The notes: generated from the letters alone by a model not told the origin. A DNA stretch of 64,000 nt from Campylobacterales bacterium (GCA_016744895.1 JADGDK010000001.1:39463-103462), one strand, 5' to 3'. Positions 45,329 to 61,513 are shown, counted from the first letter of the stretch. Numbers and translations: made by a program.

Positions 45329-45548
45329 GAAAAATGGATATACAAATGAGAGATACCCAAAATAAACTTTATTGTAAGTCCCTATGGTTGAACCTATCTT
45401 TCCAACTATAGGAGCATCAGTCGCTATAGTAGAGACGGCGAGAAAAAGAAGTAAAGCAATTGCAAGTATATATTTAAAAAGTCTTAAAATAGTTTTTCCT
45501 AATAGTATAATAGTATGAAAATTTTAACTATTATACAAAAAAACTATT

Positions 45549-47456
45549 TTATTTCATATAATTTAATAGACTTAATGAATTAACTTTTGTGATCGTTTGA
45601 AGCATTGCTTGATAGCTAAGTGTTACTTGATTCAGTTTCATAATTGTTTCCGCCATATCTACTTCCGTTGTATCAGATTTAAGCTGCATGACATTAAGCT
45701 CCAAAGCAGATGCTTTTTCTTCTGCAATTTGTAAAGACTTAGATCTTATACCAATTTGAGATTGTGCATTATTAAAGTGATTATTTATCTGTTCTAATTT
45801 ATCAATAGAGTTTTGAAGACCGATACTTCTAGGATCTCCTGAATTACTATCTAAGTCTGTCACCCCATTTCGAACTGCATCGATAATTGAATCCAACTCA
45901 TCAAAAAAGTTTAAGTTTGATTGTGCCGTTGTAACTGCATTATTTGACATAAAAGAGAGTGAAGGCGTTGTGGTATTTGAAAAATCATTGGCATCATTAT
46001 CGTACATAGCAAACTGAATATTACTAAGATTTTCAGACTTATCATTAATCTCTAGATGACCACTTTGGTTGATATCAACATTAATAAGCTCTTTTGCATT
46101 ACTCACAGCTGTATTAAAACCTGTGCTATTATTTGATGCTGGAAGCGTATCAGACATTGTCATAGAAATGATATTATTTAACTGCCCCATTGTAAAATCA
46201 TTACCATTAGTAACTGTCTCGTCTGCATTATAAATATTATAAGATGTACCATCTACAATAAAAGTTGAAGCAGCAGAGAGATTAAGCTCTATATCTTTTT
46301 CAACTCCATTGATGTCTGTAACTTTCATATCAAACGTCTTATCTGGCAATGAAGTACTATTCATCATATCACTTAATTTTGTAGTAGCATCTGCATGTAC
46401 ACCATTTGCAATTAGGGCGACATTCCCTTCTAGTGTACCTCCACTCTTTTCAAAATATTGTTGATCTATTTTCAAAGATTCATTACCACCACCTATAGTA
46501 GTATAATCACTTTTTGAAAATGAGATAATCTTATCTCCGGTAACATCATCCAAATTGGTATCTGCACTTGCACCTTGAACCCCTACCATTTTAAAATCAA
46601 GTTGACTATAACCACTTTTAAGATCCATAATCTCAATATTTCCATTATCACTAAGCGCTACTTTAACATTTCCACCTAGACTATCTTTAATCTCTCCTAA
46701 AAGATCTTCAATTTTTGCAGTTACCTGAGTGTCCACAATACTTTTAAAAGCAGTTCCATCTCCCTGCGTTCCAGATATAAAAAAGCGGACATCCGATGTA
46801 AATTCATCTCCTACTATTTCAGCAATACTACTTTGTGCTGTCAAAGGTTCATCTTCTGAAATTTGGTTTGTAAGCTTTACATTAGTTTGAACCGTTTTAT
46901 TGATATGCTGATCATCTCCCAAAAATAGAGATTGACCATCAACATTACTCTGTATCTTTATGCCATCACCCACAAGTGTCATAAGTGCATTATCATTTCC
47001 ATGATATCTTCCTTCATTATCAATAGGTTTTGTATTGGTTGCACTTCCAGAAAAAAGATATTGTCCATTCATTTGCGTATTCGCTAGAGAAATCATATGT
47101 TTTTTCTGTTCTTCAAGTTCTGTAGCAATTGCCTCATAATTATCACTATTCATTGTAGCATTACTCGCAGCAATAAGTTTTGTCTGAAAATCTCTTAAAG
47201 TCTGTGTAAATTCACTCAGTGCTGAGTCACTAGCATCCGTTAATGATTTCGCTTGAGTTGAACGCTCTTTTATTCCAGCAAGTTCATTTTCTTGAGAATT
47301 AAACCTTAGTATATCAGCGTATACAGCGCTATCTTCATAACTATTTTGGATCTTTTGACCAGATGAAACTTGTGCAGTTAATTTATTTAGTTTGCTCAAT
47401 ACTTTGCCATGATCACTTTGAAAGTTATCAAATAAAAATTGGTTTGTCACCCTCAT
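45549..47456 (-). CDS. flgL: Flagellar hook-associated protein 3 (FlgL)
   Basis: 635 aa. Flagellin-like N-terminus MRVTNQF..LTAQVSSGQKIQNSYEDS and C-terminus ..VTLSYQAMLQTITKVNSLSLLNYM, with a long variable middle. Confidence 0.85.
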   Translation of the reverse strand: MRVTNQFLFDNFQSDHGKVLSKLNKLTAQVSSGQKIQNSYEDSAVYADILRFNSQENELAGIKERSTQAKSLTDASDSALSEFTQTLRDFQTKLIAASNATMNSDNYEAIATELEEQKKHMISLANTQMNGQYLFSGSATNTKPIDNEGRYHGNDNALMTLVGDGIKIQSNVDGQSLFLGDDQHINKTVQTNVKLTNQISEDEPLTAQSSIAEIVGDEFTSDVRFFISGTQGDGTAFKSIVDTQVTAKIEDLLGEIKDSLGGNVKVALSDNGNIEIMDLKSGYSQLDFKMVGVQGASADTNLDDVTGDKIISFSKSDYTTIGGGNESLKIDQQYFEKSGGTLEGNVALIANGVHADATTKLSDMMNSTSLPDKTFDMKVTDINGVEKDIELNLSAASTFIVDGTSYNIYNADETVTNGNDFTMGQLNNIISMTMSDTLPASNNSTGFNTAVSNAKELINVDINQSGHLEINDKSENLSNIQFAMYDNDANDFSNTTTPSLSFMSNNAVTTAQSNLNFFDELDSIIDAVRNGVTDLDSNSGDPRSIGLQNSIDKLEQINNHFNNAQSQIGIRSKSLQIAEEKASALELNVMQLKSDTTEVDMAETIMKLNQVTLSYQAMLQTITKVNSLSLLNYMK

Positions 47457-47487
47457 AATCGGACTCCTAAAAACTTTTCTAATAGAA

Positions 47488-47514
47488 TTATCGGCAATTT
47501 TATGAGAAAATGTA
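47488..47514 (-). promoter_or_regulatory. Sigma28 (FliA)-type promoter of flgL
   Basis: Minus strand TACATTTT-N11-GCCGATAA. The -10 is a perfect match to GCCGATAA and the -35 matches 6/8 of TAAAGTTT. The -10 ends 31 nt upstream of the flgL ATG. Confidence 0.65.
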
Positions 47515-47594
47515 CTTTTTTATTAAAAAGTTTTGTTATTTTAATAAAAAGATTGTAGTATGTTTCGTTATTTCAAAAAAGGAAGGTAAAATTT

Positions 47595-47873
47595 ATGAAG
47601 AAAGCTGAATTAATTCAAGCAATTTCAGACAAAACAGGTTTATCAAAAAAAGATACAACTGCAACTATAGATGCTGCATTAGAAACTATTCAAGAAGCAT
47701 TAGTAGCGCGAAAAACAGTTAGTTTTATCGGATTCGGTACATTCTCTACATCTCCTAGAGCTGCTAGAACTGCAAGAGTTCCTGGTACGAATAAAGTTGT
47801 AGACGTTCCTGCAACAACAGCTGTAAAATTTAAAGTTGGTAAAAGACTTAAAGATTCAGTAGCCAATGGTTAA
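47595..47873 (+). CDS. hup: HU family DNA-binding protein
   Basis: 92 aa. MKKAELIQAISDKTGLSKKD..FGTFSTSPRAARTARVPGT.. canonical HU. Confidence 0.95.
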   Translation: MKKAELIQAISDKTGLSKKDTTATIDAALETIQEALVARKTVSFIGFGTFSTSPRAARTARVPGTNKVVDVPATTAVKFKVGKRLKDSVANG

Positions 47874-47919
47874 TTCCTAAACCTTAGAGGTTTGTAATTT
47901 TTTTACAAACCTTTAATAT

Positions 47920-48003
47920 GCCGGGGTGGTGAAACTGGTAGACACGCCAGATTCAAAATCTGGTGGGCATTCGCCCGTACCGGTTCGATTCCGGTCCTCG
48001 GTA
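47920..48003 (+). tRNA. tRNA-Leu (anticodon CAA)
   Basis: Hand-folded cloverleaf: acceptor GCCGGGG/CCUCGGU, D-arm GUG..CAC, anticodon stem CCAGA/UCUGG with loop UUCAAAA, long variable arm GGGC-AUUC-GCCC, T-arm ACCGG-UUCGAUU-CCGGU, discriminator A. CCA is not encoded. Confidence 0.9.
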
Positions 48004-48005
48004 CT
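47978..48005 (+). repeat. attL-like core: 3' end of tRNA-Leu, repeated at 57322-57348
   Basis: TACCGGTTCGATTCCGGTCCTCGGTACT. The right-hand copy is identical except for one missing C. Confidence 0.8.
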
Positions 48006-48012
48006 CACAATC

Positions 48013-48039
48013 AAAAAAGCCTAAGTTTTAGGCTTTTTT
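48013..48039 (+). terminator. Intrinsic terminator downstream of tRNA-Leu
   Basis: AAAAAAGCCTAA-GTT-TTAGGCTTTTTT: GC-cored stem flanked by A6 and T6. Confidence 0.7.
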
Positions 48040-48057
48040 GTAACTCTTAAAACTCAT

Positions 48058-48172
48058 CTATTCTATATCTACCAAAGCCTTGTTTATCTGCATCTCTTTA
48101 AGTGTATCTAAGACAGTATCTACAAGTATCGATACATCAATTGGTTTGTAAAGATAAGTATAAATACCAATA
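48058..48172 (-). pseudogene. 3'-terminal fragment of a CheY-like response regulator gene (diverged duplicate of 57403-57517)
   Basis: Encodes ..DIGIYTYLYKPIDVSILVDTVLDTLKEMQINKALVDIE, versus ..DIGIYTYLYKPIDVSILVDTVFDTLKEMPRNKALVDIE in the intact gene. Homology stops where the IS200-like tnpA relic begins. Confidence 0.8.
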
Positions 48173-48561
48173 TCAATATATTTTTGAGTATGTTCGCTCT
48201 TTCCCTTGAGTTTGAATATAACTTGCATATTGTCCAACTGTATTAGCATAATAACCACTTGTCCAAAGGCTACTATGCCACAATATCTTTTTTATGCTTT
48301 TGCTGTAATACTTTTTATTGTTTTAACAAGATTTGATACAGTCATTGTTAATACAATTTGTACCAAAAAATGTATATGGTCTAAATCATTCCCTATCCTA
48401 CAAAATATATCTCTTACCGTTCAGATACACCTATACATAGCTCTTTCAAAGGTCTCCTCTACTTCTTTTGTGAATATTTTTTTTCTGTATTTTGATGGAA
48501 ATACTAAATGATATACCAATAGTATTTGATTATGACTTTTGTATATGTGATCATCTTCCAT
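48173..48561 (-). pseudogene. tnpA: IS200/IS605-family Y1 transposase (tnpA) pseudogene
   Basis: Hand translation: MEDDHIYKSHNQILLVYHLVFPSKYRKKIF.., then an in-frame TGA at 48423-48421. HUH motif (DHIHFLVQ) and the C-terminus (LWTSGYYANTVGQYASYIQTQGKE) sit in shifted frames. 389 nt is not a multiple of 3. GACCC-AGA-GGGTC hairpin at 48580-48592. Confidence 0.75.
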
Positions 48562-49029
48562 GCTATCATTATATCACATGACCCAGAGGGTCGGGGAATT
48601 AAACCATCCTCTGATTAATATAAGAAATCAATGAGGCTAAAAGTAGCAAAAAGAGAAGAACAATAATAAAACAAGTATTAAAAAGTGACAGCAATGCTTC
48701 CTTATTAGAATATCGAATGGATAAAGTAGGTAATTTTCTTAGAGTGATAGACACAATTAGATTTGATTCAAATGGGGACTTTAAATACACAAAGCAAGAA
48801 GATTATTTATATAGTTTTTCAAAATTCAACTATACCTATGAAAAAAGTTTGTTTTTAAAATACACTACTACTTATCATGATGATAATAGGTCCTCTTCTT
48901 TAGAAGAAGAATGGTGCTAAAAGATTAGTGAGAAGATATAGGACATCGGTTGACTAAAACTTCTATCCAAAAAAATTTTATAAATCGAGTGTAAGTAGCA
49001 ATAATAATTCAATATATTTAATTTTATAG

Positions 49030-49324
49030 TAGTTAATAACTGACCTTATGCACAAATAGTAATTATGTAGTGATATCACTCTTGATAGCAATAGTATAGC
49101 AACAATCTATGAAAAACGATGGAAAGTTGAAGAGTTTTATAAATCACTAAAGTCAAATGTGGCTTTAGCTAAATCACAAACCAAGAGAGTAAGAACACAG
49201 AGCAATCACATATTTTTGGCTCTGCTATCTTTTTTTAAACTGGAGTGTTTAAAGATGAAACATCAGTTAAATCGCTTTTATGGAGTTGCAGAAATTGAAG
49301 AGTGCGTAAGGTCAGTTAATAACT
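49030..49324 (+). mobile_element. IS4-family element remnant (295 bp, internally deleted, inverted repeats retained)
   Basis: 24-nt terminal inverted repeats TAGTTAATAACTGACCTTATGCAC (49030-49053) and the reverse complement of 49301-49324 (22/24). The interior encodes only the transposase C-terminus ..IATIYEKRWKVEEFYKSLK.. (the Y-2-R-3-E-6-K signature). Confidence 0.7.
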
Positions 49325-49391
49325 ATTTAATAAAATCTTAAGACAGTGAGGGATAAAATAACACATAACTTACATCAAAAGGATAATTACC

Positions 49392-51668
49392 ATGAAAAAT
49401 ATATTATTAAGTTTCAGTTTAATAGCTTTACTGTTTTCAGGTTGTGGTGGTGGAGATACTGCTACTATTCCTAATCCTTCAGCCCAAGATATAGCTATAA
49501 AGAAGATAGCAAACTATGCAAAAAATAGTACAAATGCAAAACCAACTCTACAAGACTATATCGATGCAGGAGTAGGTGGAGTTGATGCAAGTAAGCTGGA
49601 TAAAGTTAATGAAACTGTAAAGGGTCTTACTTATGATAAAGTAGATACAAAACAAGAGATACAAGAGTTGATAGAGACTGTTGGTGTAACCTTGCCAAAC
49701 AAAGCCCCAGTAGCTACAGCACAAACTATCACTATGCTAGAAGATACTTCAAAAGCTATAGCACTATCAGCAACTGATTTAAATGGTGATGCTTTAACTT
49801 ATACCGTTATAACCCCACCAACACATGGAACTTTTACAAATGGAGTTTATACACCAACAGCTAACTACCACGGAAGTGACAGTTTTAGCTTCACGGCAAA
49901 CGATGGTACACTAACTTCAACACCTGCAACTGTATCTATCACGATAACAGATGTAGCAGATGTAAATACAGCTCCAGTAGCTACAGCACAAAGTGTAACA
50001 CTAGTCAAAGATACAACAAAAACCATTACACTAGCAGGAACAGATGCAGAGAGTGATACTCTAACTTTTACAGTAGTAACTCCTCCTGCACATGGAACAT
50101 TTGTAGGAACAACATACACACCAACACCAAACTACAACGGAAGTGATAGCTTTAGCTTCACAGCAAACGATGGTTCACTAACATCAGCTCCAGCAACTAT
50201 AACGATAACTATCACAGATGTAAATACAGCTCCAGTAGCTACAGCACAGAGTGTAACACTAGATGAAGATACAACAAAAACAATCACACTTTTGGGAACT
50301 GATGCAGATGGAGATACTCTAACTTATACACTCACAACAAACCCAACTCACGGAACATTTACAAATGGAGTTTACACACCAACACCAAACTACCACGGAA
50401 GTGACAGTTTTAGCTTCACAGCAAACGATGGTTCACTAACATCAGCTCCAGCAACGGTATCTATAACGATAAAAGATGTAGCAGAAAATCAAGCACCTAC
50501 AGTTTCACTAGAGATTAGTGAAACACTAAGAGTAGGTAGCCCTGTCACTATCACTGCAAATGCAACTGATAGTGATGGGCAAATTGCTTCATATGAGTTT
50601 AGTGGCGACATGATAGGGAATAGTAAATCAATCACAAAAACTTTTACAACAGCTGGTCAAAAAAGTGTCACTGTAACAATTACAGATAACGATGGAGCGA
50701 CTGCAACAGATACCTCCACTATAATAATAAGCGAGGCTACACTATCAAAAGTTAAAAGAACAGGACAACTATATAGTTATGACGAAGATGGCAATATAGT
50801 TACTGATGGAAGCATAAAAGATGATGGATATTATCAAGAAGGACTAGATAGAAGTTATATCAGAGATGATATAAAAGAGGTAGTTATAGACACTACAACA
50901 GGTTTGACATGGCAAGACAATGAAGATGCAAAAACAGTCAAAAAACCTTGGATTACTCAAGCTAACTATGATGCAGGAAATAGAGATGACACATCAGGTG
51001 ATACAGCTACTACCTATTGTAGCGACCTTGTTTTAGGAGGATATGGTAACTGGAAAGTGCCAACTATGAAAGAACTTTTAACTATTATAAATTATCAACC
51101 TAATGATGGATTGTCAATTAATGAAAGTTTTAAAAATGTATCGAATTCTTACTACCTCAGTTCAAATGATGCAGGAGGAAGTAATATTTGGATGATTAAC
51201 AGCAATGGTGGTAGTAGTGGAGATAGTTATAAAGATAACTATAGAAGTATTCGCTGTGTTAGATCAGATAACAATATAACTATATCTTCAAATTTCTCAA
51301 AAAATGGAAATATAGTTAAGGATAGTTCAACAGGACTTCAATGGCAAGATAACACTGATGCTGGAATCAATGGAAGTCAAAAAAATTGGCTTGAAGCTAT
51401 AGAGTATTGTGAGGCATTGTCTTTAGATGGAAAAAATGGTTGGAGGCTACCAAATATAAATGAACTTTTAACACTTGTGGATTATACTAAAAGAGAACCA
51501 TTTATGGATACCGATACTTTTGAAAATGTTGCTAGTCATCCATATTGGAGTTCCACTAGTTATGGTTATGAGCAGTTAGCTTTTTATGTCCAGATGAAAT
51601 TTGGTTTTCATGGATCTGGTGGTAAAGGCATGTACCATTTTGTTCGGTGTGTTAGAACTGGAGAGTAA
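49392..51668 (+). CDS. Surface lipoprotein: 3 tandem Ig/cadherin-like repeats, a PKD-like domain, 2 DUF1566 (Lcl C-terminal-like) domains
   Basis: 758 aa. Lipobox LLFSGC. Three ~83-92-aa repeats (APVATAQ..TYT..PTHGTF..YTPT.NY.GSDSFSFTANDG). PKD-like VTITANATDSDG..VTVTITDNDGA. Two TGLxWQDN..W(K/R)(V/L)P..EL modules. Confidence 0.8.
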   Translation: MKNILLSFSLIALLFSGCGGGDTATIPNPSAQDIAIKKIANYAKNSTNAKPTLQDYIDAGVGGVDASKLDKVNETVKGLTYDKVDTKQEIQELIETVGVTLPNKAPVATAQTITMLEDTSKAIALSATDLNGDALTYTVITPPTHGTFTNGVYTPTANYHGSDSFSFTANDGTLTSTPATVSITITDVADVNTAPVATAQSVTLVKDTTKTITLAGTDAESDTLTFTVVTPPAHGTFVGTTYTPTPNYNGSDSFSFTANDGSLTSAPATITITITDVNTAPVATAQSVTLDEDTTKTITLLGTDADGDTLTYTLTTNPTHGTFTNGVYTPTPNYHGSDSFSFTANDGSLTSAPATVSITIKDVAENQAPTVSLEISETLRVGSPVTITANATDSDGQIASYEFSGDMIGNSKSITKTFTTAGQKSVTVTITDNDGATATDTSTIIISEATLSKVKRTGQLYSYDEDGNIVTDGSIKDDGYYQEGLDRSYIRDDIKEVVIDTTTGLTWQDNEDAKTVKKPWITQANYDAGNRDDTSGDTATTYCSDLVLGGYGNWKVPTMKELLTIINYQPNDGLSINESFKNVSNSYYLSSNDAGGSNIWMINSNGGSSGDSYKDNYRSIRCVRSDNNITISSNFSKNGNIVKDSSTGLQWQDNTDAGINGSQKNWLEAIEYCEALSLDGKNGWRLPNINELLTLVDYTKREPFMDTDTFENVASHPYWSSTSYGYEQLAFYVQMKFGFHGSGGKGMYHFVRCVRTGE
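49698..50475 (+). repeat. Three near-identical in-frame tandem repeats (276, 249 and ~250 bp) inside the lipoprotein gene
   Basis: Long stretches recur almost verbatim in units 2 and 3, e.g. ...GGAAGTGA(C/T)AG(T/C)TTTAGCTTCACAGCAAACGATGGTTCACTAACATCAGCTCCAGCAAC... near 50140 and 50395. Unit 1 (near 49870) is a more diverged copy. Confidence 0.85.
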
Positions 51669-51708
51669 AAATGATATGAGCTACAAACCAATAACCAAGT
51701 ACTTTTTT

Positions 51709-51737
51709 TTGATAAATTTTGTTATATCTGATATAAT
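51709..51737 (+). promoter_or_regulatory. Consensus sigma70-type promoter with embedded palindrome, upstream of the TA pair
   Basis: TTGATA-N17-TATAAT (51709-51714 / 51732-51737). The spacer and -10 contain the dyad TTATATC-T-GATATAA. Confidence 0.65.
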
Positions 51738-51772
51738 AAACAGATGGGAAGAGCTTGACTGAAGGAGTTAAC

Positions 51773-51982
51773 ATGATGATAAATCTCAATATTAAAGATG
51801 AATACTTGGATAGCTTTTATAGGTATGTAGATAGTATGCCCAAAGGTGCTATTGTAATCCCCTCAGCACTTGATGATGAAATAGTTAAAAGAGTAGAGCA
51901 ATACAAAAAAGATAAATCTAAATCTGTACCATTTTCAAATGGGCTAAAAGAGCTAAGAAAAAAAGTTATAGTTAAAATATGA
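51773..51982 (+). CDS. Putative antitoxin of the ParE-like toxin (family not recognised)
   Basis: 69 aa from the ATG at 51773, with GGAG 6 nt upstream. 4-bp ATGA overlap with the toxin gene. No RHH or Phd motif that I can see. Confidence 0.55.
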   Translation: MMINLNIKDEYLDSFYRYVDSMPKGAIVIPSALDDEIVKRVEQYKKDKSKSVPFSNGLKELRKKVIVKI

Positions 51983-52269
51983 CTTTAGACAAGTTACCAA
52001 GATTTGATGATGAACTTGAAGAAATTATTCAGTTTATAGCAGAAGATAGTGTCAATAGAGCTTTGAGTTTTTATGATGAGTTGATTTTAAAAATAGAAAA
52101 TATACCTACTAACCCTTTGATATACAGAAAACGACAAAATACTGAAGATGAAAATATAAGAGAGCTGATATTTAAGGGGTATGTTATACCTTTTTATATT
52201 GATAAAGATAGTGATAAAATTGTAATTTTAGGTATCTTTAATCAAAATCTTTGGGATATGCCGTCTTAA
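51979..52269 (+). CDS. Type II toxin-antitoxin system RelE/ParE family toxin
   Basis: 96 aa. ..LEEIIQFIAEDSVNRALSFYDELILKIENIPTNPLIY..IRELIFKGYVIPFYIDKDSDKIVILGIFNQN follows the ParE pattern. Confidence 0.7.
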   Translation: MTLDKLPRFDDELEEIIQFIAEDSVNRALSFYDELILKIENIPTNPLIYRKRQNTEDENIRELIFKGYVIPFYIDKDSDKIVILGIFNQNLWDMPS

Positions 52270-52479
52270 TAAGCATACCAATTTCATAAATATGATACTG
52301 TTATAGTTATAGGTCGCTGCCTGATTCCGTTGTTTACTTCTTCTGTATTTATCATCAATTTTTAGAATAAATTCAATATATTTAAGTTTTATAATTTAAT
52401 CCAATATTTTATTAAATATTAAGTTTTAGATAAGTTCAAAATGATACCATAAATTATATTACAAAATATTTCTATAAAA

Positions 52480-52518
52480 CGCCAATTCAAAAAATAAGTG
52501 CAATTTTTTGAATTGGCG
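52480..52518 (+). promoter_or_regulatory. Perfect 16-bp inverted repeat in the leader of the large surface-protein gene
   Basis: CGCCAATTCAAAAAAT-AAGTGCA-ATTTTTTGAATTGGCG, ending 21 nt before the ATG at 52540 and just upstream of the AGGTGG RBS. Confidence 0.6.
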
Positions 52519-52539
52519 AAACATGATAGGTGGTATTGT

Positions 52540-55500
52540 ATGAAAAAGATAATTATTTTAACATTTTATTTTTCAGTTTTATTTTCAACTAGTGCTTATG
52601 CAAAAATTAAATTGATTAATCCAGTTACAGATGTTCCAAAGTATACTCATCTTCAAAAACAAATGTATCAGTCCTATATATATGGAGTTGCACCATTATT
52701 CTTAGCACAAAATGCAGTTATGTCTGATAGGCTGAGAAAGGCGGATTCAGATTTTAGAGGTGCAAATGAGCGATTAACAGAACTAAGAGAACAAATTAAT
52801 GATACCTTAGATTATATTGGTGCTGCTAATAGTGGGGTGGAAAATGGAATTGCTATAGGACTATTAAATGTCGGAGAAATGCAACTTATAAATTCCATAA
52901 AAGACAAAGAAAATATAAATCCAGAAGCTATAGAATTAATCACGATGTCATTTGATTCATTAAAATCTGTGGATAGTTGTAGAAATTTTGATATCATTGA
53001 TTGTGTTCTTGGAGGTGGAAAAACTGTTTCTGGTGCAGGTATAAATGTTGCTAAATTAGGAAGATTATTTTATTTCATGTGGAATTCAAATAATTATATT
53101 GATAAACTAAATTCATATAGAATTGCTGAAGCTTATATTCATCTTGGAATTCAGATTTCAAGACAAGGACAAACTAATTTTTTATCTATTAGTGATTATA
53201 CAATTAAAAGTATAGCAAAAGATTTAGAAATTGAAAAATATGATAATAATGAGGCTAAAGAGAATATGATTCTTTATAGGGATATTATACTTAGCACTTA
53301 TAAAGATAAAGATGGAAAAATTTTTGATAATACTCAAATTTCAACAAATTATAATCCAAATAAACCTTCATTAACAATTGTTGATGGTGTTAATGATACA
53401 TCTTTAACGCCATCATTTAGAGCATTCAATTTCAATGATCCTGATGAAGGAGACACCCATGCAAAAACTTGGTGGGGTATTATTGAGATTGGGAAAGGTT
53501 ATATAAATAATTTTGAGCAGGTATGGAGTAGTAAAAATAAAAACTCAATTCAAGTTCCTGAGGGTATATTGAAAAAAGGAAAAGAATATAAGGCTGTTGT
53601 AGCTTTTAAAGATAATCATGACAACTATTCTAATGGTCGATTTGTTTGGTTTAAAACAAAAGATGACTCTAATAATCCTCCTGAAAGACCAAAACTTGAA
53701 GTTATAGATGGTACAAGTAATGTATCTTTATTGCCAACATTTAAAGCTTCAGGCTATAGTGATGAAGAAAATGATGAACATTATATGACTTGGTGGGGTA
53801 TCAGAAAATATGGTACTACTCATTGGATTTTTATGCCTGGCTGGAGTGAAAATAATAAATATAATATTAAGCTAACAGAGGAAGATAAGTTAGATGCAGG
53901 TGTTAAATATGAAGTTGCCGTAGCCTTTAAAGATAAAAAAGGTCATTCTCCATCTATGAAGGTTGCATTTACTACTATACAGAATGCCAATAAAAAACCA
54001 AATCTAGATATGTATGACTACAGATATGATCAAGACTCTACAAGTAAAAGTGATGGTGATGGAAAAGTTGAAAATGGTGAGAGTGTTACTTTTGATATAA
54101 AACTAAAAAATAAAGGTGATGCCGAAGCAAATGATGTTAAAGTTGTAATGGATACGGAGTCTGAATGTGTAAGTAGAGTTCATATGTCAAAAGATTATGG
54201 AAATATTTCAGCTAATAAAATAACTGACTATAGTGGAATGGAATTTTCTTTTGATGATTGTGCAAAAAATGAAAAAATTACCTTTGATATAAAAATAACT
54301 GCAAATGGTGGATATGAATGGCATGATAGCCTTGCAGTAAGAGTTGTTGATGATAGAGAGCCATCAAATATAGAATTTGTTTCATTTAAAATCAATGATG
54401 ATAATGAGCGAAGTAGTGCAGGAAATAGTGATGGAAAGGCAAATTTAGGGGAAACTTTAGAGATATATCCAACTATTAGAAATCTTGGAGATATAAAAGC
54501 AGAAAATATAAAAGCATATTTAACAAGCAATGATGAATGTGTTGAAATTCTTACTAGAGATTATATAAGATGGAATGATTTAGATTCTAAAGAGATTAAA
54601 GAAGGTGGTGAATACAATAAAGATTCTAGCAGAAGGTTTATTGTTAGAATAAAGCCTCATTGTGCCATAGGACATAGGATTAATTTTGATGTAAAAATAA
54701 CATCTGATGGTGAGAATGAATGGTACGATACTTTTAACATTAAAGTATATGAAATGCCTACAGATTTTGAACTTTCAATAATTGATTATAATGTGACTGA
54801 TGATAGATGTCTAGATAGTTTGGGATTTTGGCATGAAGTAGAAGGTGCTGTTAATCCTTGTGATGAAATAGATATTGATATAAAGCTTAAAAATACATCA
54901 AATAAAAAATATGGAAAAATTGAAGGAACAGTAGAAACATATGATGATAGTTGTGTGAATATGACAGATGAAACACGATGGTATGATGTAAATGCTAGTA
55001 GTGATATATGGTCAGATTCAAAAAAAGATATAGACTTTACTGTCACAAAAGAATGTCAGATTGGTCATATGATTGAATTTTATGTTACTTTTGAAACAGA
55101 TTTAGGAGTTTGGACTGATAGCTTTAAAATTCCTGTTGAAAAATATAATATTACTCCAGATTTAACAATCAAATATATAAAACCATATGAGTTAAAGTTT
55201 GATGAAGGTAAAAGTATTGAGTTTGAGGTAAATGTAAAAAATGATGGTGATAGAGTAGTAAATAATTCTGTTCAAGTAGAACTAGGAATATCTAATGAAC
55301 CAAGCTGTACTGCTAGTTTATCTTTGATTGAAAATATAACTGTTCCTGCATTAGGTGATAATAATAGTGAAGAAAAAACTTTTTCTTTGCAAGCAAAAAA
55401 AGAGTGGGATGGAAAATATATTATCGCAAAAGTAGTAGCTATAGCTGGGGAAGTTAATCTTGAAAATAATTGTTATATAGGTAATAAAATAACTGTAATA

Positions 55501-56205
55501 GGCTTAGCTGTAGATACAGATATTAATACGGATCCTGATGATATAGATGTAGATAGTGACAATGACGGCATCAGTGACACAGATGAGATAAACTATGGTT
55601 TTGATCCACTAGATCCAAATGATGCAACACAAGACAAAGATAAAGATGGCATCAGCAATAAGGATGAGATTCTTGCAGGAACAGATCCAAATACATCCAA
55701 TGAATTACCAAAAGAGACGGCAAAGATACCTTTGCTGAAAGGATTTAACTTTGTGTCATTACCTATGAATGGACAAGTTTTTACAAATACCTTTAATGAC
55801 AGTATTGTAAGAGTAGTTACATTTGATACAGATAAAAATTTGATACAGTGGAAAAAATCTGCTTTGGTAAATAACTTAACAGTACTTGTGCCATATAAAG
55901 GTTATTTTGTAGAAACAACTAAAGATACATCTATAACATATGAAGCTGTACCTTTTGGTAATGATGAAAATGAAGAGTCTAATCTTGTAGTAGGTAAGTG
56001 GAATATATCTGGTTCAGAAAATATAACAATTGAAGATGTTAAATATGTGCTTGAACATAGTAATGATGTTAATATAGTTTATGTCTATAGAAATGGTGGT
56101 TATAAAGCTATAGCCAAAGACCCAAAAATCAATGAAGAGCTAAAAAAAGCTGGTATATTGCTAACTGACGATATAAAAGCTACAGAAGCTGTATTAGCAA
56201 GGTAA
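52540..56205 (+). CDS. Large secreted multi-repeat surface protein (unknown N-domain, 2 novel ~105-aa repeats, CARDB-like repeats, thrombospondin type-3 Ca-binding repeats)
   Basis: 1221 aa from the ATG at 52540 (AGGTGG RBS). Signal peptide ..STSAYA. Repeats share TWWGI and AV(V)AFKD motifs. CARDB-like NGESVTFDIKLKNKGDAEAN and SIEFEVNVKNDGDRVVN. DxDxDGxxDxxE runs at DSDNDGISDTDE and DKDKDGISNKDE. Confidence 0.8.
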   Translation: MKKIIILTFYFSVLFSTSAYAKIKLINPVTDVPKYTHLQKQMYQSYIYGVAPLFLAQNAVMSDRLRKADSDFRGANERLTELREQINDTLDYIGAANSGVENGIAIGLLNVGEMQLINSIKDKENINPEAIELITMSFDSLKSVDSCRNFDIIDCVLGGGKTVSGAGINVAKLGRLFYFMWNSNNYIDKLNSYRIAEAYIHLGIQISRQGQTNFLSISDYTIKSIAKDLEIEKYDNNEAKENMILYRDIILSTYKDKDGKIFDNTQISTNYNPNKPSLTIVDGVNDTSLTPSFRAFNFNDPDEGDTHAKTWWGIIEIGKGYINNFEQVWSSKNKNSIQVPEGILKKGKEYKAVVAFKDNHDNYSNGRFVWFKTKDDSNNPPERPKLEVIDGTSNVSLLPTFKASGYSDEENDEHYMTWWGIRKYGTTHWIFMPGWSENNKYNIKLTEEDKLDAGVKYEVAVAFKDKKGHSPSMKVAFTTIQNANKKPNLDMYDYRYDQDSTSKSDGDGKVENGESVTFDIKLKNKGDAEANDVKVVMDTESECVSRVHMSKDYGNISANKITDYSGMEFSFDDCAKNEKITFDIKITANGGYEWHDSLAVRVVDDREPSNIEFVSFKINDDNERSSAGNSDGKANLGETLEIYPTIRNLGDIKAENIKAYLTSNDECVEILTRDYIRWNDLDSKEIKEGGEYNKDSSRRFIVRIKPHCAIGHRINFDVKITSDGENEWYDTFNIKVYEMPTDFELSIIDYNVTDDRCLDSLGFWHEVEGAVNPCDEIDIDIKLKNTSNKKYGKIEGTVETYDDSCVNMTDETRWYDVNASSDIWSDSKKDIDFTVTKECQIGHMIEFYVTFETDLGVWTDSFKIPVEKYNITPDLTIKYIKPYELKFDEGKSIEFEVNVKNDGDRVVNNSVQVELGISNEPSCTASLSLIENITVPALGDNNSEEKTFSLQAKKEWDGKYIIAKVVAIAGEVNLENNCYIGNKITVIGLAVDTDINTDPDDIDVDSDNDGISDTDEINYGFDPLDPNDATQDKDKDGISNKDEILAGTDPNTSNELPKETAKIPLLKGFNFVSLPMNGQVFTNTFNDSIVRVVTFDTDKNLIQWKKSALVNNLTVLVPYKGYFVETTKDTSITYEAVPFGNDENEESNLVVGKWNISGSENITIEDVKYVLEHSNDVNIVYVYRNGGYKAIAKDPKINEELKKAGILLTDDIKATEAVLAR

Positions 56206-56215
56206 GGAGAAAGAG

Positions 56216-56749
56216 ATGAATAAAATATTGAGAAGTTTACTTGTGCTGTTTATGATGCTATCACTTACTGCTTGTGGTGGTGGAGGAAGTAGTGAAGAGC
56301 CTAAAAATAATAACTATAACCCACAAGAAAAAGAAGACCCTATTGAAACTAAAGATAGTGATAAAGATAAAGAAGAACCAACAAAATCTGCAACTAATGA
56401 TAATAAGTTCTACAAAGTATCAACTTTATCAAAAACTATCAGAGTAAATGGAAAAGAGTACAATGTTATACCATATGTAAACAATGAAAACATACCAAAT
56501 ACAGAACAAAACACTATAATCGACTTTGCTCTTATGGGTAAATCTTTCTCTATAAAAGTACCAGATGGTTTAAAAGGCAAGAAAATTTATTTTATAATCA
56601 AAGATACTAAGGGTGTGATAATGGGGCAAACAAAAGAAATTGAAATTGCTAATAATCTAAAAATAGCAAACATGCCCATTGAAGAGGTTGATGATTTACG
56701 ACCATCTTTTTTAGAGGAACATGGGTTGCCTACTCCACCTGTGTTTTAG
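56216..56749 (+). CDS. Lipoprotein, function unknown
   Basis: 177 aa. Lipobox LSLTAC followed by GGGGS and an acidic low-complexity linker. GGAG RBS 10 bp after the upstream stop. Confidence 0.7.
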   Translation: MNKILRSLLVLFMMLSLTACGGGGSSEEPKNNNYNPQEKEDPIETKDSDKDKEEPTKSATNDNKFYKVSTLSKTIRVNGKEYNVIPYVNNENIPNTEQNTIIDFALMGKSFSIKVPDGLKGKKIYFIIKDTKGVIMGQTKEIEIANNLKIANMPIEEVDDLRPSFLEEHGLPTPPVF

Positions 56750-56798
56750 TAATGAACTACCTCGACCCAAAAACTATAATAGCAATATCATACCGGTT

Positions 56799-57321
56799 GG
56801 GAGTGTACTAAAATCTGTGTCAACACCATTTCCTCCACTCTTCAAGCATTGGTATTAACTTATCAGTAACAGCTGTTATAGTACTTTTAGAGAAGCTTAC
56901 ACTATAGATATTCTCTATATGATCTGAAATTTGTGAGTAGCTATTTCCAAGTGAAAAGAGAGATAACATTTTGCCCTCTATCTCATCTGACATGTGTGTC
57001 TGATTCTTTTTGACTAATTCAGGCTCGAATGAACCACTTCTATCTCTTGGAGTTTCTAATTCAAAAGTACCACTACTGCTTTTCATAGTTTTAGTAGTCG
57101 TACCATTTTTCCTATTTCGATTTAAGTCTTGGGATAAGTGGCTCTCAAGCTCCACTTGAAGAGCTAACTCTATGAGTTGTTTTATAAGACTCCATCTTTT
57201 CCTGATATGCCTTTACCATCTTTAAGTGCTTTGGCAAACTCCTCTACATCTATCTCGTACTTTATCGTATTCTCCTGTATCAATTATCTTATCTAATTGA
57301 CACAGAATTTTGAACACTCCC
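56799..57321 (-). mobile_element. IS256-family deletion derivative (523 bp) with 25-nt inverted repeats and 8-bp target-site duplication
   Basis: IRs GGGAGTGTACTAAAATCTGTGTCAA (56799-56823) versus the reverse complement of 57297-57321 (22/25). TSD TACCGGTT at 56791-56798 and 57322-57329. Encodes only the transposase N-terminus (..LIKQLIELALQVELESHL..ELETPRDRSGSFEPELVKK..SFSKSTIT..) with a frameshift near 57180. Confidence 0.8.
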
Positions 57322-57348
57322 TACCGGTTGATTCCGGTCCTCGGTACT
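57322..57348 (+). repeat. attR-like copy of the tRNA-Leu 3' end
   Basis: TACCGGTTGATTCCGGTCCTCGGTACT, equal to 47978-48005 minus one C. Its first 8 nt also form the IS256 target duplication. Confidence 0.8.
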
Positions 57349-57402
57349 GACACTTTGAGAAGCTCTTAAGATTAAGCTTCTCAGAGAATTTAAAAAACTC
57401 AT

Positions 57403-57837
57403 CTACTCTATATCTACCAAAGCCTTATTCCTCGGCATCTCTTTAAGTGTATCAAAGACAGTATCTACAAGTATTGAGACATCGATAGGCTTGTAAAGAT
57501 ATGTATAAATACCTATATCTTCACTCTTTTTCATAAATCCTATCTCATTATGTGCAGAAATGATAATAATTTCTATATTTGGATCTATTTTTTTCATTTT
57601 AGATGCCATGGTAATCCCATCCATCTTTGGCATATTAATATCAGTAATCACTAGACCAATATCATTTTCTTCAAATAATTTTAACCCAGCTTCACCATCA
57701 ACTCCAACATGGAAGTTTTTAAAAAATTTCTTTAAAATAGCACTCGTTGCATCTCTAACATTTTCATTATCTTCTACGTATAAGACTTCAATTTTTATAT
57801 CTAATGATACTAACTCTAAAATTTTATTTTTATCCAT
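57403..57837 (-). CDS. Single-domain CheY-like response regulator
   Basis: 144 aa from the ATG at 57837 (AGGA RBS). LYVEDNE..LVITDINMPKMDG..IIISAH..YLYKPID are canonical receiver residues. The track ORF adds 29 unlikely codons. Confidence 0.85.
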   Translation of the reverse strand: MDKNKILELVSLDIKIEVLYVEDNENVRDATSAILKKFFKNFHVGVDGEAGLKLFEENDIGLVITDINMPKMDGITMASKMKKIDPNIEIIIISAHNEIGFMKKSEDIGIYTYLYKPIDVSILVDTVFDTLKEMPRNKALVDIE

Positions 57838-57975
57838 CGTATTTCCTAATTCTCTTTTCACTTTGGTCGTAAAATAAAGCCCAAAAATATTATGCATGCA
57901 TATCGACATATATAACAATATCATTATTTTGCAAGATGTGATATAATAAAAGTAAAATATTTTTTAAGGACTTTT

Positions 57976-59238
57976 ATGGATTATTTAGAGATCGAAGGTG
58001 ACAACACACTAAGTGGAGCAATTAAAATAGATGGCGCAAAAAACGCAGCACTTCCTCTACTTGCATCAACAATTCTTTTTAAAAATGAAGTCACTATAGA
58101 TAATCTTCCTCGTGTAAATGATGTCTTTACGATGTTAAAATTACTTGAGAACTTAGGTGCGACTACAAGCTTTGAAGAAAACTCTGCAAAAATCAATGCT
58201 TCCTCTATTACAAATACTACAGCGATTTATGACATCGTTCGAAAGATGAGAGCTTCCATCTTAGTGCTTGGGCCTCTTCTGGCACGCTTTGGAGAATGTA
58301 AAGTTTCACTTCCAGGCGGTTGTGCTATCGGTCAGCGACCTATCGATCTACATTTAAAAGCACTGGAGATGATGGGTGCTGACATTGTTATTGAGCAAGG
58401 ATATGTCAGAGCAAGTGCACCACAAGGTCTTCAAGGAGCCACTATCGTTTTTGATAAAATTACGGTAACTGGAACTGAAAATATTGTTATGGCTGCAGCT
58501 TTAGCACATGGAGAAACAAAAATCATTAATGCAGCAAAAGAACCAGAAGTAGTACAGCTTTGTGAAGTTCTAAATGAAAACGGCATTAAAATAGAAGGAA
58601 TTGGAAGTGATGAATTAATCATCCAAGGAACAGCAGGTGCACTTATCGATGTGAAACAGATTCGTGTCATTCCTGATCGTATTGAGGCAGGCACTTATCT
58701 TTGTGCAGGTGCGATTACAAATAGTAAAATTACACTAGAAAATGTAAACCACACACACCTTTTTGCTATCATCTTAAAACTTCAAGAGATGGGATTTGAT
58801 TTTGATCTTAAAGAGAACTCTATCACTATAAAACCCGCATCAAAAATAAAAGGTGCTAAAATCACAACCAGTGAGTATCCAGGTTTTCCCACAGATATGC
58901 AAGCACAATTTATGGCGTTAGCACTTGTAGCAGATGGAGCAAGTAGTATCGATGAAAAACTATTTGAAAATCGTTTTATGCATGTAAGTGAACTTATAAG
59001 AATGGGAGCAAATATCATATTGAGTAATCATACGGCAATGGTTGAAGGGAAGAACCAACTCAATGGTGCAGATGTCATGGCAACAGATCTAAGAGCAAGT
59101 AGTGCATTAGTTTTAGCAGCACTTGTAGCAAATGGCACTACAAAAGTGCATCGTATTTATCATCTTGACCGTGGATATGTAGAATTAGAGAAAAAATTAC
59201 AACAACTCGGAGCAAAAATTAAACGTCTTAAAGAGTAA
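57976..59238 (+). CDS. murA: UDP-N-acetylglucosamine 1-carboxyvinyltransferase
   Basis: 420 aa. [27 protein letters not shown] (catalytic Cys)..FPTDMQAQ. Confidence 0.96.
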
Positions 59239-59241
59239 ACC

Positions 59242-59808
59242 TTAAAGCTTTATAATCTTATCACTAGCCCATGTTGCTAAATCATCATCATGGGTTATAA
59301 GAAGAATACCCATATGATCCAAAAACTGCATCAATAATTTCATCACATCTAACTGAACCACATTATCAAGTGCAGAAGTGGGTTCATCTGCCAAAATTAA
59401 ATCAGCTTTCATCAAAAGTGCTCTCAAAATAGAACAACGCTGCAACTGGCCACCACTAAGCTCATGTGACTTTTTCTCTAAAAGGCTTGCATCTAAATCA
59501 AGCTTATCTAAATAAATTTCAATTCCTTCGATATCCGCTACCTCTTTGATTTGTGAGATGATGGAGTACGTAGGATGAAAAGAGCTATAAGGATCTTGGT
59601 AAATTTGAGCAATTTTGCTTTTTTCTATAGTTCCTTTTAGAGGGTTTAATACGCCAGTTATGAGTTCAAAAAGTGTACTTTTACCACTTCCACTTGCACC
59701 AACAATCGCAACCACTTCACCCTTTTTTAAAGAGAGGGAGAAATCCTTATATAAAAGTGGTCCCTCGTTGTATCCAAAGGTAAGGTTTTGTATCTCTAAA
59801 ATGTTCAA
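59242..59808 (-). CDS. Compact ABC transporter ATP-binding protein (Dpp/Opp/Nik-like)
   Basis: 188 aa. Walker A GASGSGKST, YQDPYSSFHP, signature LSGGQLQR, Walker B LILADEPTSALD. No permease gene adjacent. Confidence 0.7.
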   Translation of the reverse strand: MNILEIQNLTFGYNEGPLLYKDFSLSLKKGEVVAIVGASGSGKSTLFELITGVLNPLKGTIEKSKIAQIYQDPYSSFHPTYSIISQIKEVADIEGIEIYLDKLDLDASLLEKKSHELSGGQLQRCSILRALLMKADLILADEPTSALDNVVQLDVMKLLMQFLDHMGILLITHDDDLATWASDKIIKL

Positions 59809-61040: not shown

Positions 61041-61070
61041 ATAAACTCCCATACATTATTATTTTTAAAA

Positions 61071-61148
61071 AACTTCTTGCAAAACTACGACTAGAGGTTC
61101 AGACCAACTAAAAGATTTTTCCTCCTAGGAGTAGTTTAGTAAGAAGTT
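61071..61148. other. Long imperfect hairpin (17 of 18 bp outer stem) in the proA-rpmA divergent spacer
   Basis: AACTTCTTGCAAAACTAC (61071-61088) pairs with GTAGTTTAGTAAGAAGTT (61131-61148). An inner CTAGAGG/CCTCCTAG helix is possible. Lies upstream of the rpmA -35. Confidence 0.5.
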
Positions 61149-61170
61149 TAAATAAATTATATCAAAACTA

Positions 61171-61497: not shown

Positions 61498-61513
61498 GTT
61501 TTACAATTAAAAA

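What the first reader, a model, noticed from the sequence alone, without database searches (positions are those of the whole stretch)
47978..57348. Decayed genomic island without an integrase, at tRNA-Leu(CAA), bounded by a 27/28-nt direct repeat of the tRNA 3' end
The T-arm and acceptor sequence TACCGGTTCGATTCCGGTCCTCGGTACT of the intact tRNA (47978-48005) recurs at 57322-57348 with one C missing. This is the classic att-site signature of tRNA-targeted integration. The ~9.3 kb between the copies is the only non-housekeeping DNA in the window: three IS relics, a TA pair and three secreted-protein genes. No tyrosine or serine recombinase ORF appears in any frame of the track, and the tRNA-proximal 1.4 kb, where an integrase would normally sit, is pseudogene debris. 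The island therefore looks immobilised.
Basis: partly seen in the sequence, partly recalled or inferred. Interest (0 to 1): 0.7.

Follow-up and report, generated by a model that had tools for sequence, protein, structure and literature searches.

The report
Decayed island beside tRNA-Leu, homology-docked
A roughly 9 kb block of surface-protein genes and dead insertion sequences really is an insertion next to a leucine tRNA gene in an uncultured Campylobacterales bacterium, but the repeat around it is a ~200 bp diverged second copy of the whole local tRNA-terminator-gene end, so it looks like ordinary DNA import from a sister lineage rather than a clean integrase event.

Summary
The repeat is real: 47978-48005 recurs at 57322-57348 with one base missing. 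The interval is accessory. Sister lineages have HU-tRNA-Leu(CAA)-murA with only 139 or 441 nt between tRNA and murA; others carry a two-component cluster there; the window has 9.97 kb. No recombinase signal exists.

The "27-nt att core" is only the most conserved part of a ~200 bp imperfect duplication: tRNA 3' end, terminator, and the last 38 codons of the response-regulator gene.

The right-hand tRNA remnant is 39 nt, split by an internally deleted IS256-family relic with an 8-bp target duplication. Its variable arm is the ancestral type, identical in all sister lineages. The intact left tRNA and its upstream spacer are anomalously divergent (79% against 100% among sisters).

The duplicated gene fragment is closest to the resident gene (88%), differs mostly at synonymous sites, and shares its derived C-terminal fusion. 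It therefore came from a sister lineage's chromosome.

Best reading: DNA carrying a diverged copy of the target locus was captured by recombination through that homology, then decayed. A classic integrase event with later integrase loss is not excluded. This is an ordinary kind of object with low-to-moderate interest.

The parts
47595..47873 (+). HU-family DNA-binding protein gene, the conserved left flank
   Evidence: Pfam context. It is 96-97% identical at the amino-acid level to sister lineages. Nucleotide divergence from the sisters is ordinary up to its stop codon.
47874..47919 (+). HU-tRNA spacer (HU terminator hairpin), anomalously divergent
   Evidence: 62-69% identical to L175/L181/L183, which are 83-89% identical to one another. 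The step in the sliding profile starts here.
47920..48004 (+). Intact tRNA-Leu(CAA), divergent 'W-type' with a GC-rich variable arm (GGGCATTCGCCC), compensatory changes in the anticodon stem, and no encoded CCA
   Evidence: ARAGORN; Rfam 54.4 bits; 67-68/85 identical to sister tRNAs that are 84/84 identical to one another; no exact match to its variable arm or T-arm/trailer in two collections.
47978..48005 (+). Left copy of the 27/28-nt conserved block (T-arm, acceptor 3' strand, and CT trailer)
48006..48048 (.). Spacer A with the terminator hairpin AAAAAAGCCTAAGTTTTAGGCTTTTTT (48013-48039), a diverged homologue of the right-hand spacer
   Evidence: 26 matches to spacer B and 30 to L181, whereas spacer B has 38 matches to L181.
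48058..48174 (-). Response-regulator 3' fragment (last 38 codons plus stop), a diverged second copy of 57403-57519
   Evidence: D2 repeat at 90%; codon comparison gives 9 synonymous and 3 non-synonymous codons; 88% nt identity to the resident gene against 81% or less to other lineages, and the outgroup residue is kept at 2 of 3 differing sites.
48175..48625 (-). IS200/IS605-family relic with a frameshifted Y1 transposase, directly abutting the response-regulator fragment
   Evidence: Pfam Y1_Tnp at 2e-13 (profile 4-80), then a second frame covering profile 83-110; the N-terminal ORF is at 48421-48561.
48626..49029 (.). Unassigned 404 nt with a 67-aa ORF at 48717-48920 that has no family match
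49030..49325 (+). Internally deleted IS4-type element: 24-nt inverted repeats around a C-terminal fragment of a DDE transposase
   Evidence: I2 inverted repeat at 92%; DDE_Tnp_1 / DDE_Tnp_2 C-terminal matches.
49392..51668 (+). 758-aa lipoprotein with three Big_9/cadherin-like repeats, a PKD domain and two Lcl_C (DUF1566) domains; adhesin-like cargo
   Evidence: Pfam; NCBIfam tandem-95 repeat; lipobox LFSGC visible in the translation.
51773..51982 (+). Small ORF overlapping the ParE start, the presumed antitoxin; no family match
   Evidence: Gene call in L161; no Pfam or NCBIfam hit.
51979..52269 (+). ParE-family toxin
   Evidence: Pfam ParE_toxin at 3.7e-12.
52540..56205 (+). 1221-aa secreted protein with CARDB, DUF11 and bacterial TSP3 repeats
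   Evidence: Pfam; only two remote homologues (43% and 38% identity) among 5.8 billion proteins.
56216..56749 (+). 177-aa lipoprotein with no family match
   Evidence: Lipobox LTAC in the translation.
56779..56798 (+). First half of the displaced tRNA remnant: ancestral-type variable arm ATAGCAATATC plus the T-stem TACCGGTT (left copy of the IS256 target duplication)
   Evidence: 11/11 match to the sister lineages' variable arm; sequence further left is not tRNA-like (P about 0.3).
56799..57321 (-). Internally deleted IS256-family element: 25-nt inverted repeats (GGGAGTGT...) and a 111-aa N-terminal fragment of a Mutator-family transposase
   Evidence: I1 inverted repeat; Transposase_mut at 5.6e-22, profile 52-153 of 379; exact ends and the 8-bp duplication TACCGGTT. 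Contigs of another assembly break inside it.
57322..57348 (+).
57349..57402 (.). Spacer B with the terminator hairpin GAGAAGCTCTTAAGATTAAGCTTCTC (57357-57382); the resident-type spacer
   Evidence: 38 of ~45 positions match the spacer after the intact ancestral-type tRNA in L181.
57403..57837 (-). Intact single-domain response regulator, orphaned (no kinase partners), with a derived C-terminal tail ...KAL|VDIE*
   Evidence: Pfam Response_reg; orthologues at 73-79% sit between PAS and FIST kinases in relatives; the tail is encoded by conserved spacer sequence.
57976..59238 (+). murA, the conserved right flank
   Evidence: 90.7-93.1% amino-acid identity to sister lineages; synteny.

Best explanation
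The interval between tRNA-Leu(CAA) and murA is a hypervariable slot in this group of uncultured Campylobacterales. In the window lineage it holds about 9 kb of accessory DNA: an adhesin-like lipoprotein, a ParE toxin with a presumed antitoxin, a large secreted repeat protein, a small lipoprotein and three dead insertion sequences. This DNA arrived on a molecule that also carried a diverged copy, from a sister lineage, of the resident tRNA-3'-end / terminator / response-regulator-3'-end module. Recombination through that shared module inserted the DNA and left the module duplicated at both ends. Two routes fit. One is a reciprocal (Campbell-type) crossover centred on the 27-nt T-arm/acceptor block, the only stretch still near-identical in both copies. 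The other is a homologous anchor on the HU side with an illegitimate join at the resident tRNA's variable arm (homology-facilitated illegitimate recombination). On this explanation no island-encoded integrase was needed for insertion into this genome, and none is present. An IS256-family element later inserted into the displaced tRNA remnant, and all three insertion sequences decayed. What is shown: the duplication architecture, the empty sites in relatives, the absence of a recombinase, the sister-lineage origin of the duplicated gene fragment, and the IS256 target duplication. What is inferred: which enzyme made the joint, which of the two tRNA copies was resident, and the order of events.
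For: Empty or alternative occupancy of the slot in sister lineages: 139 nt (L173/L174), 441 nt (L171), and a FIST-kinase / response-regulator / PAS-kinase cluster (L175, L182, L183, L162-L168). The duplication spans about 200 bp, not 27 nt. The duplicated response-regulator fragment is nearest to the resident gene (88% against 81% or less), differs at 9 synonymous and 3 non-synonymous codons, keeps the outgroup residue at 2 of 3 differing sites, and shares the derived ...KAL|VDIE* fusion. It is therefore a piece of a functional gene from a sister lineage's chromosome. The two terminators are homologous but only about 59% identical, while the right one is about 83% identical to L181. The pattern across the two copies is reciprocal: W arm, conserved block and spacer A with fragment A on the left; ancestral arm, conserved block and spacer B with the intact gene on the right. 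The six-frame scan of 48000-49400 finds no recombinase at E<=1, and every other stretch is occupied by intact non-recombinase ORFs or the IS256 relic. Composition is only mildly atypical (GC 31.5% against 34%, tetranucleotide z up to 2.4), as expected for a related donor. The definition of homology-facilitated illegitimate recombination is taken from PMC3240628.
Against: A tRNA gene plus a same-orientation 3' fragment is the textbook mark of tyrosine-integrase islands (PMC4383910), and an integrase could have been deleted without trace. The intact tRNA and its upstream spacer are far more divergent than a sister-lineage donor or resident predicts (79% against 100%), so at least one further unexplained replacement event is needed. 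Both T-loops carry the same two substitutions relative to the sisters, which needs crossover-associated conversion or parallel change. No donor locus, no island-free allele of this exact lineage and no second copy of the cargo was found. Natural competence of this organism is assumed, not shown.
Confidence: 0.5

Rival explanations
1. This is a classic tDNA-targeted genomic island. A tyrosine integrase encoded by the element recombined attP with the 3' part of tRNA-Leu, and the integrase gene and attL-proximal DNA were later destroyed by IS activity and deletion. In the variant compatible with the data, the element had previously excised imprecisely from a sister lineage and so carried that host's tRNA 3' end, terminator and response-regulator end next to its att site. 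That is analogous to lambda bio transducing phages, which gain right-flank DNA and lose int.
For: There is an intact tRNA and a same-orientation 3' fragment at the two ends of an accessory segment, with empty sites in relatives. The reciprocal pattern around a conserved 27-nt block is what site-specific recombination also produces. The T-stem is one of the two common crossover sublocations (PMC4383910).
Against: No integrase or recombinase remnant appears at E<=1 anywhere in the non-ORF DNA or among the ORFs. The repeat extends about 170 nt beyond the tRNA. The remnant starts at the variable arm, which is neither the T-stem nor the anticodon-centred position. The 5' half of the intact tRNA and its upstream spacer are also non-ancestral, which a crossover inside the tRNA cannot produce.
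Confidence: 0.25
2. The tRNA-terminator-response-regulator-end module was duplicated in situ within this genome. The two copies then diverged, and the cargo and insertion sequences accumulated between them by separate insertions.
For: Both copies share the lineage-specific ...KAL|VDIE* fusion and are each other's closest relatives. Three independent IS relics show repeated insertion activity here.
Against: The truncated copy should decay neutrally, yet the differences are mostly synonymous and the fragment keeps ancestral residues. This test is weak, because half the changes would fall in the selected copy. The variable arms differ completely (GGGCATTCGCCC against ATAGCAATATC), with fully compensatory stem changes, which drift from one gene does not produce. 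Spacer B is much closer to another lineage (L181, about 83%) than to spacer A (about 59%).
Confidence: 0.1
3. The arrangement is an assembly artefact: a chimeric join of two co-occurring strains, or a mis-join across a repeated IS256 copy.
For: The window appears to be a metagenome-derived contig. Another assembly of sample SAMN14087007 breaks inside the IS256 relic, with a 55-nt overlap between contig ends.
Against: The left junction lies inside L161 and the right junction inside L170. The sequences flanking the IS256 relic are the two halves of one tRNA remnant sharing an 8-bp target duplication, which links the two contigs independently of any assembler. The two repeat copies are only about 60-90% identical outside 27 nt, too different to confuse an assembler.
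Confidence: 0.02

Closest known systems
tDNA-integrated genomic islands as defined by Islander (tyrosine-integrase islands flanked by a regenerated tRNA gene and its displaced 3' fragment; PMC4383910)
   Same: An intact tRNA gene lies at one end and a same-orientation 3' fragment at the other. The segment between is accessory, with empty sites in relatives, and carries surface-protein and toxin-antitoxin cargo plus IS elements.
   Different: There is no integrase gene or relic. The repeat extends about 170 nt past the tRNA into the neighbouring gene. The fragment begins at the variable arm. The tRNA-proximal DNA is host-like sequence from a sister lineage rather than element DNA.
Homology-facilitated illegitimate recombination, and Campbell-type insertion through a homologous segment, during natural transformation (definition in PMC3240628; the Campbell model is from my own knowledge)
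   Same: Foreign DNA is flanked by a duplicated, diverged copy of the target locus. The donor is a related lineage. The near-identical block lies exactly between stretches that differ on both sides, as expected for a homologous crossover point.
   Different: Neither the donor nor the pre-insertion allele has been observed. Competence of this organism is not shown. The anomalous tRNA 5' half and upstream spacer need an additional event.
Specialised-transducing derivatives formed by aberrant excision, such as lambda bio, which gain flanking host DNA, lose int, and can re-insert by homology (from my own knowledge)
   Same: The inserted DNA carries right-flank host sequence next to a tRNA 3' end and lacks an integrase.
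   Different: No phage genes of any kind are present. The resemblance is in logic only and was not tested.
IS256-family insertion sequences (Mutator-type DDE transposase, terminal inverted repeats, 8-9 bp target duplications; from my own knowledge)
   Same: It has 25-nt terminal inverted repeats, an 8-bp direct duplication (TACCGGTT), and a Transposase_mut N-terminal fragment.
   Different: It is only 523 bp long. The transposase is internally deleted (profile positions 52-153 of 379), so it is a non-autonomous relic.

Membership tests
tDNA-integrated (tyrosine-integrase) genomic island, Islander criteria | An intact tRNA gene plus a cognate tRNA fragment in the same orientation bounding the segment | tested here: met
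   tRNA-Leu(CAA) at 47920-48004 and a 39-nt 3' remnant at 56779-56798 plus 57330-57348, both on the + strand.
tDNA-integrated (tyrosine-integrase) genomic island, Islander criteria | An integrase gene (tyrosine recombinase) inside the island | tested here: not met
   No Phage_integrase, resolvase or recombinase hit among the ORFs or in the six-frame translation of 48000-49400 at E<=1. The remaining DNA is covered by intact non-recombinase ORFs or the IS256 relic.
tDNA-integrated (tyrosine-integrase) genomic island, Islander criteria | attL/attR identity confined to the tRNA, with the crossover at the T-stem or centred on the anticodon | tested here: inconclusive
   The near-identical block (27 nt) starts at the T-stem. 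However, homology continues about 170 nt downstream, and the remnant itself starts at the variable arm.
tDNA-integrated (tyrosine-integrase) genomic island, Islander criteria | Unoccupied site in related genomes | tested here: met
   L173/L174 have 139 nt and L171 has 441 nt between tRNA-Leu and murA.
tDNA-integrated (tyrosine-integrase) genomic island, Islander criteria | Excision as a circle that regenerates attB | not testable with these tools
   This needs reads from the source sample or an experiment.
Homology-driven insertion (Campbell-type or homology-facilitated illegitimate recombination) | The insert is flanked by, or anchored on, a segment homologous to the target, with the donor copy distinguishable from the resident copy | tested here: met
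   A ~200 bp module is duplicated at 59-100% identity depending on the sub-segment. Fragment A is a sister-lineage allele.
Homology-driven insertion (Campbell-type or homology-facilitated illegitimate recombination) | Donor and recipient parental alleles identifiable, so that the crossover or illegitimate joint can be mapped | tested here: not met
   No locus with spacer A or with the W-type tRNA was found elsewhere. Exact-protein look-ups were exhausted.
Homology-driven insertion (Campbell-type or homology-facilitated illegitimate recombination) | The organism takes up and recombines DNA (competence or transduction) | not tested
   Competence genes were not searched for; only a 64-kb window was available.
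IS256 family | Mutator-type transposase, terminal inverted repeats and an 8-9 bp target duplication | tested here: met
   Transposase_mut at 5.6e-22; 25-nt inverted repeats and the TACCGGTT duplication. The transposase is truncated, so the element is a relic.
IS200/IS605 family | Y1 (HUH) transposase | tested here: met
   Y1_Tnp at 2e-13 with a frameshift. The element ends and hairpins were not analysed.
ParDE type II toxin-antitoxin | ParE-fold toxin with an overlapping upstream antitoxin gene | tested here: inconclusive
   ParE_toxin at 3.7e-12. The upstream 69-75 aa ORF overlaps the toxin start by 4 nt but matches no family.

The most novel reading that the evidence does not exclude
The intact tRNA-Leu(CAA) and its promoter-proximal spacer are a xenologous replacement from an unsampled lineage. 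The native tRNA gene survives only as the IS-split 39-nt remnant. On this reading the island brought its own complete, divergent tRNA gene and displaced the resident one, entering by homology docking through captured host flank with no integrase at any stage. That would be tRNA gene replacement coupled to island capture in naturally recombining Campylobacterales.
Probability: 0.25. Interest if true: 0.45.

Novelty: new member of a known kind. Interest (0 to 1): 0.3.

Why it matters
It shows that a tRNA gene plus a tRNA fragment is not enough to call an integrase-made island. Here the fragment is part of a larger duplicated copy of the target locus from a sister lineage, which points to capture of imported DNA through homology. 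For annotation, the case gives a worked example of a hypervariable tRNA-murA slot with four occupancy states among sister lineages. It also shows a functional tRNA gene that is more divergent than the pseudogene beside it. The cargo (adhesin-like and repeat-rich exported proteins) is typical strain-variable surface equipment. None of this changes current understanding of genomic islands.

Tried and rejected
- **Species-representative genomes (response regulator):** the search returned only paralogues at 48% identity or less.
- **Species-representative genomes (MurA):** the best hit was 71% identical and had no tRNA-Leu nearby. That collection holds no close relative.
- **Exact-pattern searches for the window-type tRNA:** searches for the T-arm with CT trailer and for the W-type variable arm found nothing in the genome or JGI metagenome collections.
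- **Six-frame translation by DNA reference:** I redid it with stops masked as X, for 48000-49400 only.
- **A full-length decayed tRNA at the right end:** rejected, because the 45 nt left of the variable arm align no better than random genomic windows (P about 0.3).
- **An IS256-like end in the L181 tail that might explain the kinase deletion:** rejected; only 7-8-mer matches were found.
- **Remnants of the FIST or PAS kinases inside the island:** none were found. The only hit is a paralogue at window 22364-24343.
- **Other copies of the IS relics or cargo:** there are none in the window or in the fetched loci.
- **Cargo homologues:** the largest cargo protein has only two remote homologues, and the one whose context I examined (P0139) lies in an unrelated cluster of large surface proteins with no integrase or tRNA nearby.
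- **Composition:** it did not discriminate strongly.

Full report
**Observation.** The window has one tRNA gene, tRNA-Leu(CAA), at 47920-48004. Its last 28 nt (47978-48005) recur at 57322-57348 with one C missing. Shuffles give no expected matches. The 9.3 kb between the copies contains:
- an IS200 Y1-transposase relic, an IS4-type DDE relic and an IS256/Mutator relic;
- a ParE toxin with a small overlapping upstream ORF;
- a 758-aa lipoprotein with Big_9/cadherin, PKD and Lcl_C domains;
- a 1221-aa secreted protein with CARDB, DUF11 and TSP3 repeats;
- a 177-aa lipoprotein.

**The repeat is larger than reported.** Past the tRNA end, both copies continue with a terminator hairpin, homologous but only about 59% identical. 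Then come 126 nt at 90% identity (48049-48174 against 57394-57519), covering the last 38 codons and the stop of the response-regulator gene on the minus strand. The left end of the "island" is therefore a second, truncated copy of the right flank.

**The right-hand remnant is split by an insertion sequence.** A 523-bp IS256-family relic (56799-57321) has 25-nt inverted repeats and an 8-bp target duplication, TACCGGTT. With the relic removed, the remnant reads ATAGCAATATCATACCGGTT-GATTCCGGTCCTCGGTACT, 39 nt running from the variable arm to the 3' end. Sequence further left is not tRNA-like (P about 0.3).

**Assembly.** Two contigs from another assembly (ENA ERZ28566751) cover window 42150-57252 at 99.97% and 57198-64000 at 100%. 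They break inside the IS256 relic. The two halves of the tRNA remnant and the shared target duplication link them without relying on any assembler. An artefact is very unlikely.

**Relatives and empty sites.** The species-representative genome set holds nothing close; the best MurA hit is 71% identical. Exact-protein look-ups of close HU and response-regulator orthologues gave sister lineages from metagenomes. Flanking proteins place the window beside the L175/L163 lineage (FlgL 83%, FtsK 87%, MurA 93%), with L171 and L173 as a second clade. The tRNA-Leu-to-murA slot has four states:

| Lineage | Content between tRNA-Leu and murA |
|---|---|
| L173/L174 | 139 nt |
| L171 | 441 nt, including 75-nt tandem repeats |
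| L175, L182, L183, L162-L168 | FIST kinase, response regulator, PAS kinase (partly decayed in L162/L163) |
| Window | 9,971 nt |

. The segment is therefore accessory, and the slot is hypervariable.

**No recombinase.** The six-frame translation of 48000-49400 gives only the IS200 and IS4-type transposase fragments at E<=1. The rest of the interval is intact non-recombinase ORFs or the IS256 relic. The IS200 relic abuts the response-regulator fragment directly. This leaves no room for a decayed integrase beside the tRNA.

**Origin of the duplicated module.**
- In relatives the response regulator ends ...KALEYEGS and overlaps the FIST kinase start. In the window both copies end ...KAL|VDIE*, and the tail is encoded by spacer sequence that L181 also has downstream of its terminator. 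Both copies therefore share a derived kinase-deletion junction.
- The two copies are each other's closest relatives: 88% over 99 nt, against 81% or less to any other lineage.
- They differ at 9 synonymous and 3 non-synonymous codons.
- At 2 of the 3 amino-acid differences the truncated copy keeps the outgroup residue.

The fragment thus looks like a piece of a working gene from a sister lineage, not an in-situ duplicate that drifted. I note that the synonymous/non-synonymous test alone is weak.

**The tRNA anomaly.** The tRNA-Leu(CAA) genes of L175, L181, L182 and L183 are identical (84/84), and they match L171, from the other clade, at 83/85. This type is therefore ancestral. The window's intact tRNA matches these at only 67-68/85. 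It has a different, GC-rich variable arm and compensatory changes in the anticodon stem. The broken remnant carries the ancestral variable arm, 11/11. A sliding comparison shows ordinary divergence through FtsK, FlgL and HU. A step follows just after the HU stop: in the last 131 nt the window is 75% identical to L175, while L175 and L183 are 97% identical. Spacer B, beside the remnant, is closest to the spacer after the ancestral-type tRNA in L181 (about 83%). Spacer A is the outlier.

**Mechanism.** The two copies form a reciprocal pattern around a 27-nt near-identical block:
- **Left copy:** divergent arm, conserved block, spacer A, gene fragment A.
- **Right copy:** ancestral arm, conserved block, spacer B, intact gene B.

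Two homology-based routes fit this.
- **(a) Campbell-type crossover.** A molecule carried a contiguous sister-lineage chunk (ancestral-type tRNA 3' part, spacer A, gene fragment A) and recombined with the resident locus inside the conserved block. Crossover-associated conversion would explain the identical T-loops. On this route the resident tRNA was already the divergent type.
- **(b) Homology-facilitated illegitimate recombination.** Linear DNA (divergent spacer and tRNA, spacer A, gene fragment A, IS elements, cargo) entered with a homologous anchor in HU or FlgL and an illegitimate join at the resident tRNA's variable arm (definition in PMC3240628). On this route the resident tRNA was the ancestral type and was destroyed.

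Each route needs one extra unexplained event to account for the divergent tRNA and spacer, so I cannot choose between them.

An integrase could also have made the crossover. Even then, the incoming molecule carried chromosomal flank from a sister lineage, so it was not a precisely excised element.

My confidences are homology-driven capture 0.5, classic integrase event with later loss 0.25, in-situ duplication 0.1 and artefact 0.02. The remaining ~0.13 is left for histories I have not considered.

**Comparison with known systems.** The locus meets two Islander criteria (tRNA plus same-orientation fragment; empty site in relatives). It fails the integrase criterion, and the att-extent criterion is equivocal (PMC4383910). 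It should not be filed as a typical tyrosine-integrase island. It behaves like one in outcome: strain-variable surface genes parked beside a tRNA gene. It is now immobile.

**Verdict.** This is a real, ordinary, decayed accessory segment in a tRNA-adjacent hotspot. The novelty rating is a new member of a known kind, and the interest score is about 0.3. The one puzzling element is the highly divergent functional tRNA-Leu(CAA) sitting next to an ancestral-type pseudogene remnant.

Noticed in passing
window 47874-48004: The functional tRNA-Leu(CAA) and the 46-nt spacer upstream of it are far more divergent from sister lineages (79% and 62-69%) than the flanking protein genes predict. Sister lineages have identical tRNAs. 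The variable-arm stem is completely swapped from AT-rich to GC-rich with full compensation. No exact match to this arm was found in two large collections.
   Followed up: partly
window 57403-57837 (-): The response regulator is an orphan. In relatives it sits between a PAS histidine kinase and a FIST-domain histidine kinase, both absent here. Its last four codons (VDIE*) are encoded by former intergenic spacer, so a deletion fused the gene to the tRNA terminator region.
   Followed up: partly
window 22364-24343 (-): A FIST-domain histidine kinase paralogue, 34-36% identical to the kinases that flank the response regulator in relatives, lies elsewhere in the window.
   Followed up: no
L171 10436-10634 (and on to about 10730): In a sister-clade MAG the same tRNA-Leu-to-murA slot holds 2.6 tandem copies of a 75-nt unit at 93% identity. 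By eye, a further diverged copy follows. The units contain a GC-rich hairpin-like core (CTCAGCGGAGGGCTCACGGG).
   Followed up: partly
L162 8818-10886; L163 8087-10400: In the sister lineage the two kinases flanking the response regulator are called as short fragments (147-175 aa PAS/HisKA pieces, a 38-aa piece and a 123-aa FIST piece). The two-component cluster appears to be decaying there as well.
   Followed up: no
window 48005 and 57348; L181 about 625: The window's tRNA-Leu copies and L181 end ...GGTACT, with no encoded CCA. All other relatives examined encode GGTACCA.
   Followed up: no
window 49697-50485: Three tandem 264-nt coding repeats at 73-80% identity inside the 758-aa lipoprotein gene correspond to its three Big_9/cadherin-like domains.
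   Followed up: no
window 57198-57252 (L161 end / L170 start): Contigs of another assembly of the same sample end inside the IS256 relic with a 55-nt overlap. This suggests a graph branch there, either from further copies of this element in the community or from polymorphism for the insertion.
   Followed up: no
L188 2078-15583: The best remote homologue of the 1221-aa cargo protein (43% identity over 43% of the query) lies beside a 1997-aa Lcl_C/RHS-repeat protein and a beta-helix protein, in a cluster of giant surface proteins in an unrelated metagenome contig.
   Followed up: no
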